A stretch of 64,000 bases of DNA from Escherichia phage vB-Eco-KMB39: sequence record OR539219.1, one strand, 5' to 3'. Under the pieces are notes generated by a model, which was not told the DNA's origin, searched no databases, and saw only the letters and a list, made by a program, of their open reading frames with translations. Positions within the stretch are counted from its first letter, which is position 1. Each line of letters starts with the position of its first letter. A program made the position numbers and the translations under genes. This document shows positions 35,138 to 36,548 of the stretch, piece by piece.

Positions 35138-35213
35138 TGGTCGAGGCAGTAGGGATCGAACCTACGACCCAGGACTTAGAAGGTCCTTGCTCTTCCTTCT
35201 GAGCTATGCCTCG
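35138..35213 (-). tRNA. tRNA-Arg (anticodon UCU)
   Basis: Manual cloverleaf: 7-bp acceptor CGAGGCA/TGCCTCG, anticodon loop CUUCUAA, T-arm GTAGG-TTCGATC-CCTAC, 3' CCA encoded. Confidence 0.8.
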
Positions 35214-35217
35214 TATT

Positions 35218-35292
35218 TGGCGGACGTGATAGGATTCGAACCTATAACCAATCGCTTAACAGGCGATCGCTCTGCCATTGAGCTACACATCC
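35218..35292 (-). tRNA. tRNA-Asn (anticodon GUU)
   Basis: Manual cloverleaf: anticodon stem ATCGC/GCGAT, loop CUGUUAA, T-loop TTCGAAT, CCA encoded. Confidence 0.7.
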
Positions 35293-35296
35293 AAAT

Positions 35297-35383
35297 TGGT
35301 GGGGAGTGGTGGAGTCGAACCACCCGAGTCGCAATGACAATGAATTTACAGTCCACACCGCTACCCCTACGGGATAACTCCCC
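35297..35383 (-). tRNA. tRNA-Tyr (anticodon GUA), long variable arm
   Basis: Acceptor GGGGAGT/ACTCCCC, anticodon loop CUGUAAA identical to bacterial tRNA-Tyr, long extra arm, T-arm GGTGG-TTCGACT-CCACC, CCA. Confidence 0.65.
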
Positions 35384-35392
35384 AAATTAATT

Positions 35393-35467
35393 TGGTGGCC
35401 CTGGGTGGAATTGAACCACCATCTGGCGATTATGAGTCGCTTGCTTGAACCTTCCAGCTACAGGGCC
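35393..35467 (-). tRNA. tRNA-Ile (anticodon CAU, presumably lysidine-modified; Met not excluded)
   Basis: Anticodon loop CUCAUAA; acceptor GGCCCTG/CAGGGCC; CCA encoded. Confidence 0.7.
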
Positions 35468-35468
35468 T

Positions 35469-35544
35469 TGGTGCTGATTGACGGAATCGAACCGCCGACA
35501 TCCTCATTACAAGTGAGGTGCTCTACCTACTGAGCTAAATCAGC
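35469..35544 (-). tRNA. tRNA-Thr (anticodon UGU)
   Basis: GCTGATTTAGCTCAGTAGGTAGAGCACCTCACTTGTAATGAGG...; anticodon loop CUUGUAA. Confidence 0.8.
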
Positions 35545-35549
35545 AAAAC

Positions 35550-35639
35550 TGGCGGAGGCGATAGGATTTGAACCTATGAGTCGCCGGAGCGACTGCCGGT
35601 TTTCAAGACCGGTGCATTCAACCACTCTGCCACGCCTCC
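35550..35639 (-). tRNA. tRNA-Ser (anticodon UGA), long variable arm
   Basis: Acceptor GGAGGCG/CGCCTCC, anticodon loop CUUGAAA, long extra arm, CCA. Confidence 0.8.
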
Positions 35640-35653
35640 AAATATTTATATAT

Positions 35654-36262
35654 TTATATATTGTTAATTTGATTTAGAATTCTTTTTGCTTGAGTATGAC
35701 TTACGCCAATATGCTTAGCATATTTAGATAATTCGCCGCGTTTAGAAAAATCATATAATTTAGAAATTTCTATTCTTCTTTTTCTTTCATCCGCAGAAAC
35801 TTTTGCTTCGTTTGCTTTTGCTATTTTACGTTTAGCTTCTTGAGAATGAGTTTTACCAGCAAAGCCATTCTTCATTAATCCATTTGAAGACCATCCTTTT
35901 AATTTTCCGTTAGAATGTGCCTTTTTAACACCCAATGAAATTAATTCGCGTTGCTGATCTGTCATAGGATAATTATTTATATGATCCCATCCACCTTCAC
36001 CTCCAAGTTTTAAATTATACACATCTGGTCTATTTAAAAACTCTTCTGTGACAATATTTTTCTCGGCTTCAAGCATAGATTCTTTATCATCAAAATACTC
36101 TAATATTTCTTTAGAAAAATTTTCTATACCATATTTATCTTGGGCTCTTTTTAATAATTTACCAGAACCCATATATCCATCATCTAAATTTTCGGTAGAA
36201 TGCACACCAATATAAATTTTATTATTAATTTTATTTGTTATTTTATAAAGATAAAAATGCAT
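35654..36262 (-). mobile_element. segB: GIY-YIG homing endonuclease SegB-like, within the tRNA cluster
   Basis: N-terminal GIY-YIG motif (FYLYKITNKINNKIYIGVHS); sits between two tRNA sub-clusters as T4 segB does; start taken at ATG 36260-36262 (SD AGGGA), track ORF extends to 36304. Confidence 0.8.
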
Positions 36263-36308
36263 ATCAGTCCCTAATAAAGAACTGAGCGTCTCACGACGAG
36301 TCATAAAT

Positions 36309-36382
36309 TGGAGCGGATAATGAGAATCGAACTCACATCATCAGATTGGAAGTCTGAGGTAATACCATTATACGATATCCGC
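36309..36382 (-). tRNA. tRNA-Gly (anticodon UCC)
   Basis: GCGGATATCGTATAATGGTATTACCTCAGACTTCCAATCTGATGATGTGAGTTCGATTCTCATTATCCGCTCCA, matches recalled T4 tRNA-Gly. Confidence 0.9.
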
Positions 36383-36387
36383 AAATT

Positions 36388-36474
36388 TGGTGCGAGAAGT
36401 GGGACTCGAACCCACAAGGAAATAATTCCGCAGCATTTTAAGTGCTGTGCCTTTACCAATTTGACCATTCTCGC
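36388..36474 (-). tRNA. tRNA-Leu (anticodon UAA)
   Basis: GCGAGAATGGTCAAATTGGTAAAGGCACAGCACTTAAAATGCTGCGG...GGGTTCGAGTCCCACTTCTCGCACCA; long variable arm. Confidence 0.9.
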
Positions 36475-36476
36475 GC

Positions 36477-36548
36477 TGGGAATAAAGGACTCGAACCTTT
36501 GCATCCTGGAATCAAAATCCAGTGCCTTACCAACTTGGCTAATTCCCA
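36477..36548 (-). tRNA. tRNA-Gln (anticodon UUG)
   Basis: TGGGAATTAGCCAAGTTGGTAAGGCACTGGATTTTGATTCCAG...GGTTCGAGTCCTTTATTCCCAGCCA. Confidence 0.85.

What the first reader, a model, noticed from the sequence alone, without database searches (positions are those of the whole stretch)
35138..36548. tRNA repertoire differs from T4: tRNA-Tyr and tRNA-Asn present, tRNA-Pro not found
Manual folding gives nine tRNAs: Gln, Leu and Gly upstream of segB, then Ser, Thr, Ile, Tyr, Asn and Arg. T4 as I recall it encodes Gln, Leu, Gly, Pro, Ser, Thr, Ile and Arg. The Tyr and Asn genes sit between Ile and Arg, and no Pro tRNA lies between Gly and segB or segB and Ser, consistent with cassette-like gain and loss in the cluster.
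Basis: partly seen in the sequence, partly recalled or inferred. Interest (0 to 1): 0.5.

Follow-up and report, generated by a model that had tools for sequence, protein, structure and literature searches.

The report
Known T-even phage tRNA cluster variant
The nine tRNA genes are real and differ from phage T4 as described, but this arrangement is already found in dozens of sequenced T4-like phages and comes from selfish endonuclease genes swapping blocks of tRNA genes.

Summary
ARAGORN finds nine minus-strand tRNA genes at 35138-36548: Gln, Leu, Gly, then a GIY-YIG endonuclease ORF, then Ser, Thr, a CAU tRNA, Tyr, Asn and Arg. No tRNA-Pro occurs in the 64 kb window. T4 has Gln, Leu, Gly, Pro, Ser, Thr, Ile, segB, Arg.

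The arrangement is not new. The same nine-gene array is annotated in phage slur07, and RB18 and AR1 carry it with an extra tRNA-His. Tyr and Asn in T2L, RB1 and RB3 were described in 2008.

The "gain of Tyr/Asn" reading has the polarity wrong.
- Apart from one segment, the cluster matches the endonuclease-free ten-tRNA array of RB9 at 98.7% and 97.7% identity without gaps.
- That segment is an 80-nt stretch holding tRNA-Pro in RB9, replaced here by a 663-nt endonuclease cassette ("seg'").
- T4 is the derived state at the other site: its Ile-segB-Arg block stands where most relatives have CAU-Tyr-Asn-Arg.

The window's "segB" is not at the T4 segB site. It shares only the catalytic domain with T4 SegB and has a different DNA-binding domain.

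Likely roles of the extra tRNAs are translational supply and countering tRNA-cleaving host defences. Both are inferred, not shown. Interest is low.

The parts
36636..36645 (-). MotA-box-like motif ATTTGCTTTA, followed after 12 nt by TATTAT. Putative middle promoter of the tRNA transcription unit.
   Evidence: Sequence motif search. Window 36304-36654, which overlaps this motif up to 36654, is 96% identical to T4. In T4 a middle promoter just upstream of the cluster drives the whole unit (PMC2330249 discussion). Promoter function here is inferred.
36475..36548 (-). tRNA-Gln (UUG); CCA not encoded, abuts tRNA-Leu
   Evidence: ARAGORN; Rfam 67.4 bits. Identical to slur07, RB18, AR1. The anticodon-arm sequence is also identical in RB9. 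Differs from T4 by 8 nt, all in the anticodon arm.
36388..36474 (-). tRNA-Leu (UAA), class II
   Evidence: ARAGORN; Rfam 59.3 bits; 86/87 identical to T4.
36309..36382 (-). tRNA-Gly (UCC)
   Evidence: ARAGORN; Rfam 65.8 bits; 74/74 identical to T4, T2, T6.
35641..36303 (-). 663-nt seg' cassette occupying the place of tRNA-Pro. It holds the 5' UTR, the GIY-YIG homing-endonuclease ORF and a spacer.
   Evidence: BLAST against RB9, T2 and T4: homology stops at 35640 and resumes at 36304. The corresponding RB9 and T2 segments are 80 nt and hold tRNA-Pro. Junction sequences.
35654..36262 (-). seg' ORF, 202 aa (an in-frame upstream ATG at 36304 would give 216 aa). The N-terminal ~95 aa match the SegB catalytic domain; the C-terminal ~105 aa are a different DNA-binding domain.
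   Evidence: ORF list. Pfam GIY-YIG 27 bits (cut-off 22.6) and NUMOD3 20.4 bits (cut-off 20.4), with a weak HTH match. phrog_314 homing endonuclease, E 2e-54. Alignment with T4 and T6 SegB. Nucleotides 35974-36248 are 98.9% identical to T4 segB, and 35974-36317 are 97.7% identical to T6.
36264..36285 (-). Hairpin covering the Shine-Dalgarno sequence (AGGGA) immediately 5' of the seg' ATG
   Evidence: Stem-loop found by the terminator-like scan. Analogous to the translation-occluding hairpin proposed for T4 segB (PMC2330249, PMC2988022). A regulatory role is inferred.
35550..35639 (-). tRNA-Ser (UGA), class II, CCA encoded
   Evidence: ARAGORN; Rfam 62.6 bits; 89/90 identical to T2, RB18 and slur07.
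35469..35544 (-). tRNA-Thr (UGU)
   Evidence: ARAGORN; Rfam 75.4 bits; 76/76 identical to T4.
35393..35467 (-). CAU-anticodon tRNA, tRNA-Ile2-like (presumed lysidine-modified, reading AUA). T2/RB9-type allele, not the T4 tRNA-Ile sequence.
   Evidence: ARAGORN 'Met(cat)'; Rfam 59.9 bits. Best E. coli matches are annotated tRNA-Ile, 81.6% over the full length, median 2 places per genome. 75/75 identical to T2, RB18, AR1 and slur07; 49/79 to T4.
35297..35383 (-). tRNA-Tyr (GUA), class II with a 3-bp variable arm
   Evidence: ARAGORN cloverleaf. Rfam gives only 31.8 bits to the tRNA-Sec model. 86/87 identical to T6 tRNA-Tyr and 85/87 to T2.
35218..35292 (-). tRNA-Asn (GUU). It is 75/75 identical to the Asn gene of the sequenced T2 genome; the T2L tRNA-Asn gene holds the preferred T4 SegB cleavage site.
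   Evidence: ARAGORN; Rfam 74.1 bits; 75/75 identical to T2, RB18, AR1 and slur07. SegB site reported in PMC2330249.
35138..35213 (-). tRNA-Arg (UCU), T2/RB9-type allele
   Evidence: ARAGORN; Rfam 65.8 bits; 76/76 identical to T2 and 52/82 to T4.
35017..35136 (-). rnaD (species 2 stable RNA) homologue
   Evidence: 99.2% identical to the annotated RB9 rnaD and 85.6% to T4 rnaD. No Rfam family matched.
34872..35010 (-). rnaC (species 1 stable RNA) homologue
   Evidence: 98.6% identical to the annotated T4 and RB9 rnaC.
34798..34821 (-). Intrinsic-terminator-like hairpin plus T run, ending the tRNA/stable-RNA unit
   Evidence: Terminator scan: 10-bp stem with 7 G-C pairs, followed by TTTTT. In T4, transcription of the cluster terminates after species 1 RNA (PMC2330249).

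Best explanation
The window comes from a Tequatrovirus (T4-like coliphage). Its tRNA cluster is one of several standard mosaic alleles that circulate in this genus.

The cluster is a single transcription unit on the minus strand. In order it holds a putative MotA-type promoter, Gln-Leu-Gly, seg', Ser-Thr-Ile2(CAU)-Tyr-Asn-Arg, rnaD, rnaC and a terminator.

Compared with the endonuclease-free ten-tRNA array of RB9/RB3, it differs by one event. The 80-nt segment holding tRNA-Pro has been replaced by a 663-nt cassette. This cassette encodes a free-standing GIY-YIG homing endonuclease (seg') and begins right after the ...CCAATTTA at the 3' end of tRNA-Gly.

The other difference from T4 is on T4's side. 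T4 carries its own segB cassette, flanked by divergent Ile and Arg tRNAs. Most relatives, including this phage, instead keep CAU-Tyr-Asn-Arg at that place.

Such replacements arise by double-strand breaks at tRNA 3' ends made by Seg endonucleases during mixed infection, followed by recombinational repair that copies the endonuclease gene and its flanks. This was shown for T4 SegB acting on T2L. It is inferred for seg'.

The tRNAs themselves probably serve two purposes: supplying an AT-rich, Asn- and Tyr-rich phage proteome, and replacing host tRNAs cut by anti-phage nucleases. Both roles are inferred here.
For: **Shown here**
- Nine tRNAs and no Pro.
- The same nine-gene array is annotated in slur07, which matches the cluster region at 98.3% identity over 2 kb. 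RB18 and AR1 carry it plus His.
- Window 34789-35640 matches RB9 at 98.7% with 0 gaps, and 36304-36654 at 97.7% with 0 gaps. Only RB9's 80-nt Pro segment differs, against the window's 663 nt.
- All 53 database records that hold seg' in full show Gly-seg'-Ser as one collinear piece. tRNA-Ser and tRNA-Gly are the only tRNAs annotated under the match.
- The seg' 5' UTR is identical from the upstream tRNA's CCA onward to that of T6 segB, which sits behind a different tRNA (Tyr).
- seg' has a GIY-YIG domain and a NUMOD3 motif.
- The CAU and Arg tRNAs are identical to T2's and only about 62-63% identical to T4's.
- T4 segB lies between Ile and Arg.

**From the literature**
- T4 SegB cuts at the 3' ends of tRNA genes, next to CCAR, and prefers the tRNA-Asn gene of T2L, RB1 and RB3. 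In T4 x T2L crosses segB is inherited at nearly 100%, with loss of the T2L tRNA-region markers (PMC2330249).
- T6 tRNA-Tyr counteracts Septu, and T4, which lacks tRNA-Tyr, cannot escape it (PMC13096335).

**Supply argument**
- The window's ORFs encode 4.7% Tyr, 6.1% Asn and 3.45% Pro.
- From my own knowledge, E. coli proteins hold roughly 2.8%, 3.9% and 4.4%.
Against: - No experiment shows that seg' is active or what it cuts. RB51 and RB68 copies are annotated as 'truncated SegB-like protein', so some copies may be decaying.
- The direction of events (Pro replaced by seg', rather than Pro inserted in place of seg') rests on homing-endonuclease logic and on the minority status of seg' (56 records, against about 248 with a T4-type Pro). 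No phylogeny was built.
- In the Jiaodavirus phage KP13MC5-5 a seg' homologue coexists with a downstream tRNA-Pro. seg' insertion therefore does not always remove Pro.
- Both proposed tRNA functions are inferences. Septu also cleaves T6 tRNA-Tyr (PMC13096335), so any benefit there depends on dosage.
Confidence: 0.85

Rival explanations
1. The repertoire is shaped mainly by selection for translational supply. Tyr and Asn tRNAs are kept because the AT-rich phage proteome needs more of them than the host provides. Pro is dispensable because the phage uses proline less than the host does.
For: - The window's ORFs encode 4.7% Tyr, 6.1% Asn and 3.45% Pro. E. coli holds roughly 2.8%, 3.9% and 4.4% (my own knowledge).
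- The other tRNAs in the cluster read A-ending codons that are frequent here: TTA 30, AGA 12, GGA 24, CAA 25, ACA 18, TCA 20 and ATA 13 per thousand. This is the classical view of T4 tRNAs.
Against: - Amino-acid use is essentially the same across Tequatroviruses, yet Pro, Tyr, Asn, His and Thr are each present or absent in close relatives.
- The differences coincide exactly with endonuclease cassettes.
- CCA and CCT together are still 28 per thousand, so tRNA-Pro(UGG) would not be useless.
Confidence: 0.35
2. The extra tRNAs are primarily counter-defence genes. tRNA-Tyr buffers against Septu and retron-Eco7-type nucleases that cut host tRNA-Tyr. tRNA-Asn and tRNA-Thr are nuclease-resistant replacements for targets of the PARIS nuclease AriB.
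For: - The window's tRNA-Tyr is 86/87 identical to T6 tRNA-Tyr. Overexpressing the T6 tRNA rescues T6 from Septu, and deleting the T6 tRNA-rich region increases Septu sensitivity (PMC13096335).
- The window's tRNA-Asn reads U36-A-A-G-C|G41, where the host tRNA has U-A-A-U-C|C (sequence; host sequence and cleavage site from PMC12409363). It differs at positions 39 and 41. Mutations at these positions make T5 tRNA-Lys resistant to AriB.
- The window's tRNA-Thr is identical to T4's. It differs from the host at position 40.
Against: - Nothing has been tested for this phage.
- Septu cleaves T6 tRNA-Tyr as well (PMC13096335).
- Without a tRNA-Lys the phage would still be exposed to AriB's main activity. 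T4 needed T5 tRNA-Lys for rescue (PMC12409363).
Confidence: 0.4
3. The repertoire is largely a neutral by-product of endonuclease drive. tRNA genes are passengers that are co-converted or overwritten when Seg cassettes home, with little selection on which tRNAs are present.
For: - T4 segB homing erases the T2L tRNA-region markers (PMC2330249).
- Every difference among T4, T6, T2, RB9, FJ1 and the window maps to a block next to an endonuclease or another inserted ORF.
- The tRNA region is described as not essential for T4 development (PMC2330249).
Against: - The tRNA sequences are highly conserved (98-100% identity between phages).
- Experiments show fitness effects of phage tRNAs under defence pressure (PMC13096335, PMC12409363).
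Confidence: 0.3
4. The Tyr call is a false positive or a pseudogene, and the cluster has only eight working tRNAs.
For: - No RF00005 hit at the gathering score. The only Rfam match is 31.8 bits to the tRNA-Sec model.
- The D stem has a C-C mismatch and the anticodon stem has two G-U pairs.
- The minimum-free-energy fold is not a cloverleaf.
Against: - 86/87 identical to T6 tRNA-Tyr. That tRNA is detected by northern blot and tRNA sequencing and is functional in rescue assays (PMC13096335).
- The Tyr-Asn pair is conserved in 390 phage records.
- The acceptor stem, T arm and variable arm are intact.
Confidence: 0.03

Closest known systems
tRNA cluster of Escherichia phage slur07 (NC_028780); also bov9_1, Phaginator and JLBYU24
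   Same: Identical gene order: Gln Leu Gly, homing endonuclease, Ser Thr CAU Tyr Asn Arg. 98.3% nucleotide identity over 2 kb, with the same flanking ORFs.
   Different: A few point differences in the Leu variable loop, Ser D loop, Thr and Tyr D loop. The window also has 8 extra nt within the 821-nt Ser-seg'-Gly stretch (821 nt against 813 nt).
Endonuclease-free array of RB9/RB3 (KM606998); the RB1/RB3 maps are in PMC2330249
   Same: Gln Leu Gly ... Ser Thr CAU Tyr Asn Arg rnaD rnaC. 97.7-98.7% identical without gaps on both sides of the seg' cassette.
   Different: RB9 has tRNA-Pro (an 80-nt segment) where the window has the 663-nt seg' cassette. RB9 also lacks the two flanking ORF insertions at 34268-34788 and 36655-37168.
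Phage T4 tRNA cluster with segB (NC_000866)
   Same: Same genomic position, between e.8 with rnaC/rnaD on one side and trna.2-4 with ipI on the other. Same strand. Gly and Thr are identical, Leu is 86/87, and rnaC is 98.6% identical.
   Different: - T4 has Pro and lacks Tyr and Asn.
- T4 segB lies between Ile and Arg, not between Gly and Ser.
- T4's Ile and Arg tRNAs are different sequences (49/79 and 52/82).
- T4 tRNA-Gln has a different anticodon arm.
- The T4 SegB C-terminal domain is unrelated to that of seg'.
Phage T6 tRNA-rich region with SegB (AP018814; PMC13096335)
   Same: tRNA-Tyr is 86/87 identical. The endonuclease 5' UTR and catalytic-domain DNA are 97.7% identical. The endonuclease gene starts directly after a tRNA CCA end.
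   Different: - T6 segB sits between Tyr and Arg and has the T4-type C-terminal domain.
- T6 lacks annotated Pro, Ser and Asn genes.
- T6's Ile and Arg tRNAs are of the T4 type.
Phage T2/T2L tRNA region (AP018813; PMC2330249)
   Same: The CAU-Tyr-Asn-Arg block is 99.1% identical, and tRNA-Asn is identical.
   Different: T2 keeps Pro, lacks Thr, has no seg gene, and carries two other ORFs. One of them, a 133-aa ORF between Ser and the CAU tRNA, ends in an HTH-like tail resembling that of seg'.
seg' homologue in Klebsiella Jiaodavirus phage KP13MC5-5 (OP617748)
   Same: A full-length homologue with the same N- and C-terminal architecture and a similar 5' UTR, inserted directly 3' of tRNA-Gly.
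   Different: Only 79.7% nucleotide identity. A tRNA-Pro follows it, and the ORF's end overlaps the 5' end of that Pro gene. The ORF is not annotated in the record.

Membership tests
Bacterial-type tRNA genes | Cloverleaf with anticodon, detected by a dedicated tRNA finder | tested here: met
   ARAGORN finds nine genes with unambiguous anticodons. Cloverleaves for Tyr and the CAU tRNA are drawn.
Bacterial-type tRNA genes | Score at or above the Rfam RF00005 gathering threshold (29 bits) | tested here: inconclusive
   Eight of nine score 59-75 bits. tRNA-Tyr is not reported by RF00005 and matches only the tRNA-Sec model at 31.8 bits. Its 86/87 identity to the experimentally studied T6 tRNA-Tyr settles it as a tRNA (PMC13096335).
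Tequatrovirus (T4-type) tRNA/stable-RNA transcription unit | Single cluster between the e.6-e.8 genes and the trna.2-4/internal-protein genes. All genes on one strand, followed by rnaD, rnaC and a terminator. | tested here: met
   Synteny with T4, RB18, AR1, slur07 and RB9. rnaC and rnaD homologues at 34872-35136. Terminator-like hairpin at 34798-34821.
T4 tRNA repertoire (Gln Leu Gly Pro Ser Thr Ile Arg) | Same eight isoacceptors with orthologous sequences | tested here: not met
   Pro is absent and Tyr and Asn are present. The CAU and Arg tRNAs are only 49/79 and 52/82 identical to T4's.
tRNA-Ile2 (CAU anticodon converted to lysidine, reads AUA) | Sequence resembles tRNA-Ile2 rather than elongator or initiator tRNA-Met | tested here: met
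   The best E. coli matches are annotated tRNA-Ile, 81.6% over 75 nt, with a median of two places per genome. The acceptor-stem pairs C4-G69 and C5-G68 are visible in the sequence. Their role as TilS determinants is from my own knowledge.
tRNA-Ile2 (CAU anticodon converted to lysidine, reads AUA) | C34 actually modified to lysidine and the tRNA charged with isoleucine | not testable with these tools
   Requires mass spectrometry of the tRNA or aminoacylation assays.
SegB (T4/T6 free-standing GIY-YIG homing endonuclease) | N-terminal GIY-YIG catalytic domain | tested here: met
   Pfam PF01541, 27 bits against a cut-off of 22.6. Residues 1-95 are nearly identical to T4 and T6 SegB. The DNA is 98.9% identical to T4.
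SegB (T4/T6 free-standing GIY-YIG homing endonuclease) | C-terminal DNA-binding region homologous to that of T4 SegB | tested here: not met
   From about residue 96 the alignment shows no meaningful similarity. seg' ends in an HTH-like tail that T4 and T6 SegB lack. There is no nucleotide match beyond 35974.
SegB (T4/T6 free-standing GIY-YIG homing endonuclease) | Insertion site between tRNA-Ile (or Tyr) and tRNA-Arg | tested here: not met
   seg' lies between tRNA-Gly and tRNA-Ser. T4 segB lies between Ile and Arg, and T6 segB between Tyr and Arg (PMC2988022 Table 1).
SegB (T4/T6 free-standing GIY-YIG homing endonuclease) | Site-specific cleavage at tRNA gene 3' ends and preferential inheritance in mixed infection | not testable with these tools
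   Needs purified protein and phage crosses. The only indirect support is that the cassette starts directly after the ...CCAATTTA at the tRNA-Gly 3' end.
Phage counter-defence tRNAs | Close homologue of a phage tRNA shown to relieve a tRNA-cleaving defence | tested here: met
   tRNA-Tyr is 86/87 identical to T6 tRNA-Tyr, which counteracts Septu when overexpressed or amplified (PMC13096335).
Phage counter-defence tRNAs | Protection of this phage from Septu, retron-Eco7 or PARIS | not testable with these tools
   Requires plaque assays with tRNA deletion mutants.

The most novel reading that the evidence does not exclude
seg' is an experimentally uncharacterised homing endonuclease. It combines the SegB catalytic domain with a different NUMOD3/HTH DNA-binding domain.

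Under this reading its homing site would be the Gly-Pro-Ser allele carried by T4, T2 and RB3-type phages. It would then spread through Tequatrovirus populations by overwriting tRNA-Pro. Like T6 SegB, it might also drive tandem amplification of neighbouring tRNA genes under pressure from host defences.

That would make two related endonucleases competing within one 1.5-kb tRNA cluster, each erasing a different set of tRNA genes.
Probability: 0.35. Interest if true: 0.4.

Novelty: already known. Interest (0 to 1): 0.15.

Why it matters
It matters little as a discovery. The nine-tRNA arrangement is deposited and annotated in dozens of Tequatrovirus genomes. The Tyr/Asn difference from T4, and its link to SegB homing, were published in 2008.

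It is useful for annotation in four ways:
- T4 should not be taken as the reference repertoire. The Tyr-Asn block and the window's tRNA-Gln allele are the majority state.
- The "segB" label copied into RB18- and RB32-type annotations hides a gene at a different site with a different DNA-binding domain.
- The CAU tRNA should be called Ile2-like rather than Met.
- The repertoire predicts testable phenotypes on hosts that carry tRNA-cleaving defences such as Septu, retron-Eco7 or PARIS.

Tried and rejected
- **Remnant of tRNA-Pro.** I looked for one inside or near the seg' cassette. None was found. T4 and T2 Pro match only the window's Thr gene, at a generic 75%.
- **Co-conversion marker.** I tested whether the distinctive tRNA-Gln anticodon-arm allele is linked to seg'. 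Rejected: RB9 and FJ1 have the same allele without seg', and it occurs in about 312 records against 56 for seg'.
- **Recent chimera.** I considered that seg' was assembled recently inside Tequatrovirus. This is weakened by a Jiaodavirus phage with a full-length homologue of the same architecture at the same site behind tRNA-Gly. The near-identity of the catalytic half to T4/T6 segB looks more like recent gene conversion between paralogues.
- **Single-sequence folding.** Minimum-free-energy folding of individual tRNAs was uninformative. Tyr does not give a cloverleaf and z-scores were about -2.
- **Rfam for rnaC and rnaD.** No family matched. They were identified by homology to annotated T4 and RB9 features instead.
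- **Literature survey.** A search for a systematic survey of Tequatrovirus tRNA repertoires gave only a remark that 24 of 84 reference genomes have ten tRNAs.
- **Sigma-70 promoter scan.** It found no more sites than in shuffled sequence. This is as expected for a unit driven by a T4 middle promoter.

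
Full report

Yes. ARAGORN on the whole window returns exactly nine tRNA genes, all on the minus strand, spanning 35138-36548. In transcription order they are:
- Gln(UUG) 36475-36548
- Leu(UAA) 36388-36474
- Gly(UCC) 36309-36382
- Ser(UGA) 35550-35639
- Thr(UGU) 35469-35544
- a CAU tRNA 35393-35467
- Tyr(GUA) 35297-35383
- Asn(GUU) 35218-35292
- Arg(UCU) 35138-35213

Rfam's tRNA model independently hits eight of them at 59-75 bits. Neither tool reports a tRNA-Pro in the 64 kb. BLAST of the T4 and T2 Pro genes against 34501-37000 gives only a generic 75% match to the Thr gene.

tRNA-Tyr is the only weak call. It falls below the RF00005 threshold and appears only as a 31.8-bit match to the tRNA-Sec model. 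ARAGORN's cloverleaf has a C-C mismatch in the D stem and two G-U pairs in the anticodon stem. However, it is 86/87 identical to T6 tRNA-Tyr. That tRNA has been detected by northern blot and tRNA sequencing and shown to counteract the Septu defence (PMC13096335).

The CAU tRNA is labelled Met by ARAGORN and by several GenBank records. Its best E. coli matches are genes annotated tRNA-Ile, at 81.6% over the full length, and a median of two places per genome match. This fits the two-copy tRNA-Ile2 genes.

**2. What phage and what neighbourhood?**

The 2-kb region matches 991 phage records, mostly Escherichia and Shigella Tequatroviruses. A 24-kb stretch around it is about 96% identical to JLBYU24, CAM-21, KIT03, RB32 and RB33.

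The cluster lies in the usual T4 position. The e.6-e.8 genes and the stable RNAs rnaC and rnaD are on one side, and trna.2-4 and an internal-protein gene are on the other.

- rnaD (35017-35136) is 99.2% identical to the RB9 annotation.
- rnaC (34872-35010) is 98.6% identical to both the RB9 and the T4 annotation.
- A strong terminator-like hairpin follows at 34798-34821.
- A MotA-box-like ATTTGCTTTA, followed after 12 nt by TATTAT, lies at 36645-36636 upstream of tRNA-Gln. The adjoining stretch 36304-36654 is 96% identical to T4.

In T4 the whole cluster is one middle-promoter transcript that ends after species 1 RNA (PMC2330249). The same organisation is inferred here.

**3. Comparison of architectures**

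| Phage | Gene order |
|---|---|
| T4 | Gln Leu Gly Pro Ser Thr Ile, segB, Arg |
| T6 | Gln Leu Gly Thr Ile Tyr, segB, Arg |
| FJ1 | Gln Leu Gly Pro Ser Thr Met Tyr, segB-sized endonuclease ORF (666 nt), Arg |
| T2 | Gln Leu Gly Pro Ser, ORF, CAU Tyr Asn Arg, ORF |
| RB9 (species RB3) | Gln Leu Gly Pro Ser Thr CAU Tyr Asn Arg (no endonuclease) |
| RB18, AR1 | Gln Leu Gly, seg', Ser Thr CAU Tyr Asn His Arg |
| slur07 and the window | Gln Leu Gly, seg', Ser Thr CAU Tyr Asn Arg |

The window's exact arrangement is therefore already deposited and annotated. A genome paper notes that tRNA number varies among Tequatrovirus reference genomes, with ten tRNAs in 24 of 84 (PMC10236363).

**4. Where exactly do the differences lie?**

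*Against RB9.* Window 34789-35640 aligns at 98.7% with no gaps. This stretch covers the terminator, rnaC, rnaD, Arg, Asn, Tyr, CAU, Thr and Ser. Window 36304-36654 (Gly, Leu, Gln and upstream) aligns at 97.7% with no gaps. Between them RB9 has 80 nt holding tRNA-Pro, and the window has 663 nt (35641-36303) holding an endonuclease ORF. The same boundaries appear against T2 and T4.

All 53 database records that contain this endonuclease in full show Ser-seg'-Gly as one collinear piece of about 813 nt. tRNA-Ser and tRNA-Gly are the only tRNAs annotated under the match. In the listed Tequatrovirus records, seg' and tRNA-Pro are therefore alternative occupants of one site.

*Against T4.* The window's CAU and Arg tRNAs are not the T4 sequences (49/79 and 52/82 identical), but they are identical to T2's. 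The whole CAU-Tyr-Asn-Arg block is an allele alternative to T4's Ile-segB-Arg block. It is not a pair of genes inserted between conserved neighbours.

*Database counts.*
- A T4-type tRNA-Pro at 95% identity or more: about 248 records.
- Both Tyr and Asn: 390 records.
- The seg'-specific half: 56 records.

T4 is thus the less common state at the Tyr/Asn site, and the window is the less common state at the Pro site.

**5. The endonuclease**

The ORF is at 35654-36262 and encodes 202 aa. An upstream in-frame ATG at 36304 is used in some annotations.

Domain matches:
- Pfam GIY-YIG, 27 bits against a cut-off of 22.6.
- NUMOD3 exactly at its threshold, plus a weak HTH match.
- PHROG homing-endonuclease family phrog_314, E 2e-54.

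Its first ~95 residues are almost identical to T4 and T6 SegB. The DNA is 98.9% identical to T4 over 35974-36248 and 97.7% identical to T6 over 35974-36317. From about residue 96 the protein is unrelated to SegB. It ends in an HTH-like tail that resembles the end of a 133-aa T2 ORF lying between Ser and the CAU tRNA.

The 46-nt 5' UTR is the same as in T6 from the very end of the upstream tRNA onward...CCA ATTTATGACTCGTCGTGAGACGCTCAGTTC.... The upstream tRNA is Gly here and Tyr in T6.

A hairpin at 36285-36264 covers the Shine-Dalgarno sequence just before the ATG. It recalls the translational occlusion proposed for T4 segB (PMC2330249, PMC2988022).

A full-length homologue with 79.7% nucleotide identity, the same architecture and a similar UTR sits directly after tRNA-Gly in the Klebsiella Jiaodavirus phage KP13MC5-5. 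There a tRNA-Pro follows it. seg' is thus a family of its own with a preferred site behind tRNA-Gly. Its near-identity to segB in the catalytic half within Tequatrovirus is best read as recent exchange between paralogues (inference).

Annotations calling it 'segB, location conserved in T4' or 'segD' are misleading.

**6. Mechanism**

*Shown in the literature.*
- T4 SegB cuts at the 3' ends of tRNA genes. It recognises the T-arm motif GGTTCRANTCC and prefers to cut after CCAR.
- Its favoured site is the tRNA-Asn gene of T2L, RB1 and RB3.
- In T4 x T2L co-infection segB is inherited at nearly 100%, and the T2L tRNA markers are lost (PMC2330249).
- T6 SegB also drives tandem amplification of tRNA-Tyr plus segB under Septu pressure (PMC13096335).

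*Shown here.*
- The window's tRNA-Asn is identical to that of the sequenced T2 genome, so it probably carries the preferred T4 SegB site mapped in T2L.
- The seg' cassette begins directly after the ...CCAATTTA at the tRNA-Gly 3' end.

*Inferred.*
- seg' entered an RB3-type array by the same break-and-repair route, and the repair overwrote tRNA-Pro.
- This phage would be a recipient for T4-type segB homing and a donor of seg' to phages that carry Pro.

**7. What the tRNAs are for**

Two non-exclusive explanations fit.

*Supply.* The window's 78 long ORFs encode 4.7% Tyr, 6.1% Asn and 3.45% Pro. From my own knowledge, E. coli proteins hold roughly 2.8%, 3.9% and 4.4%. The other tRNAs read A-ending codons that are common here.

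*Counter-defence.*
- Host tRNA-Tyr is cut by Septu and retron-Eco7, and phage tRNA-Tyr relieves this. T4, which lacks it, cannot escape Septu (PMC13096335).
- The PARIS nuclease AriB cuts tRNA-Lys, tRNA-Thr(UGU) and, less efficiently, tRNA-Asn(GUU) between positions 40 and 41 (PMC12409363).
- The window's tRNA-Asn has U36AAGC|G41 where the host has UAAUC|C. It differs at positions 39 and 41, the positions that confer AriB resistance in T5 tRNA-Lys.
- The window's tRNA-Thr is identical to T4's and differs from the host at position 40.

Neither role was tested. Because repertoire differences coincide with endonuclease cassettes, part of the pattern may simply reflect endonuclease drive.

**8. 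Verdict**

The arrangement and its mechanism are already known.

The one modestly open point is the uncharacterised seg' endonuclease, its target, and its apparent cost of one tRNA gene.

Noticed in passing
window 36475-36548 (tRNA-Gln), compared with L004 (T4), L005 (T6), L006 (T2), L008 (RB9) and L009 (FJ1): tRNA-Gln exists as two discrete alleles that differ at 8 positions, all in the anticodon arm. The stem changes are compensatory and positions 32 and 38 of the loop also differ.

- CTGGA-TTTTGAT-TCCAG: the window, slur07, RB18, AR1, RB9 and FJ1.
- TAGCA-CTTTGAC-TGCTA: T4 and T6. T2 has the same allele with one substitution in the stem (TAGAA).

The other 66 nt are identical. About 312 records carry the window type and 127 the T4 type. 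The pattern looks like diversifying selection on the anticodon arm, possibly from anticodon-arm nucleases.
   Followed up: partly
window 34268-34788: A 521-nt insertion relative to T4 and RB9 carries ORF 34272-34745 (157 aa, phrog_2280, unknown function). It is bounded by two copies of the same ~35-nt terminator hairpin, at 34233-34267 and 34789-34824. The insertion therefore looks like a recombination event at a duplicated terminator.
   Followed up: partly
window 36655-37168: A 514-nt insertion relative to T4 and RB9, between trna.2 and the tRNA promoter region. It carries ORF 36635-37150 (171 aa, phrog_2290, unknown function; 'RB32ORF135c' in RB18). It is also present in T2, slur07 and AR1.
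   Followed up: partly
L006 (T2) 5711-6112: The T2 ORF between tRNA-Ser and the CAU tRNA (133 aa, mis-annotated 'tail sheath monomer') ends in a tail...NVSHTQARKFLNKYYIK, resembling the C-terminal HTH-like tail of seg' (...GVSHTQAKRILNQINNI). Its N-terminus is different. It may be a remnant or a variant of another tRNA-cluster endonuclease. Pfam gave no significant match.
   Followed up: partly
L007 (Klebsiella phage KP13MC5-5) 2003-2648: An intact seg'-like ORF of about 200 aa between tRNA-Gly and tRNA-Pro is not annotated in the record. Its last codons overlap the 5' end of the tRNA-Pro gene.
   Followed up: partly
window 35640-35653: The 821-nt Ser-seg'-Gly stretch is 8 nt longer in the window than in the listed relatives (813 nt). 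The extra bases probably lie in the AT-rich spacer between the seg' stop codon and tRNA-Ser, which is 14 nt here and 6 nt in slur07. No consequence is known.
   Followed up: no
L005 (T6) 2643-2717: The tRNA-Thr annotated in the T6 record was not detected by ARAGORN in my run, although the record lists it. The reason was not examined.
   Followed up: no
window 34872-35010 (rnaC): The rnaC homologue contains a tRNA-like T-arm (GGGTTCGAATCCCGGC on the transcribed strand, around 34880-34900). Neither ARAGORN nor any Rfam family reports it, and rnaC and rnaD have no Rfam model match.
   Followed up: no
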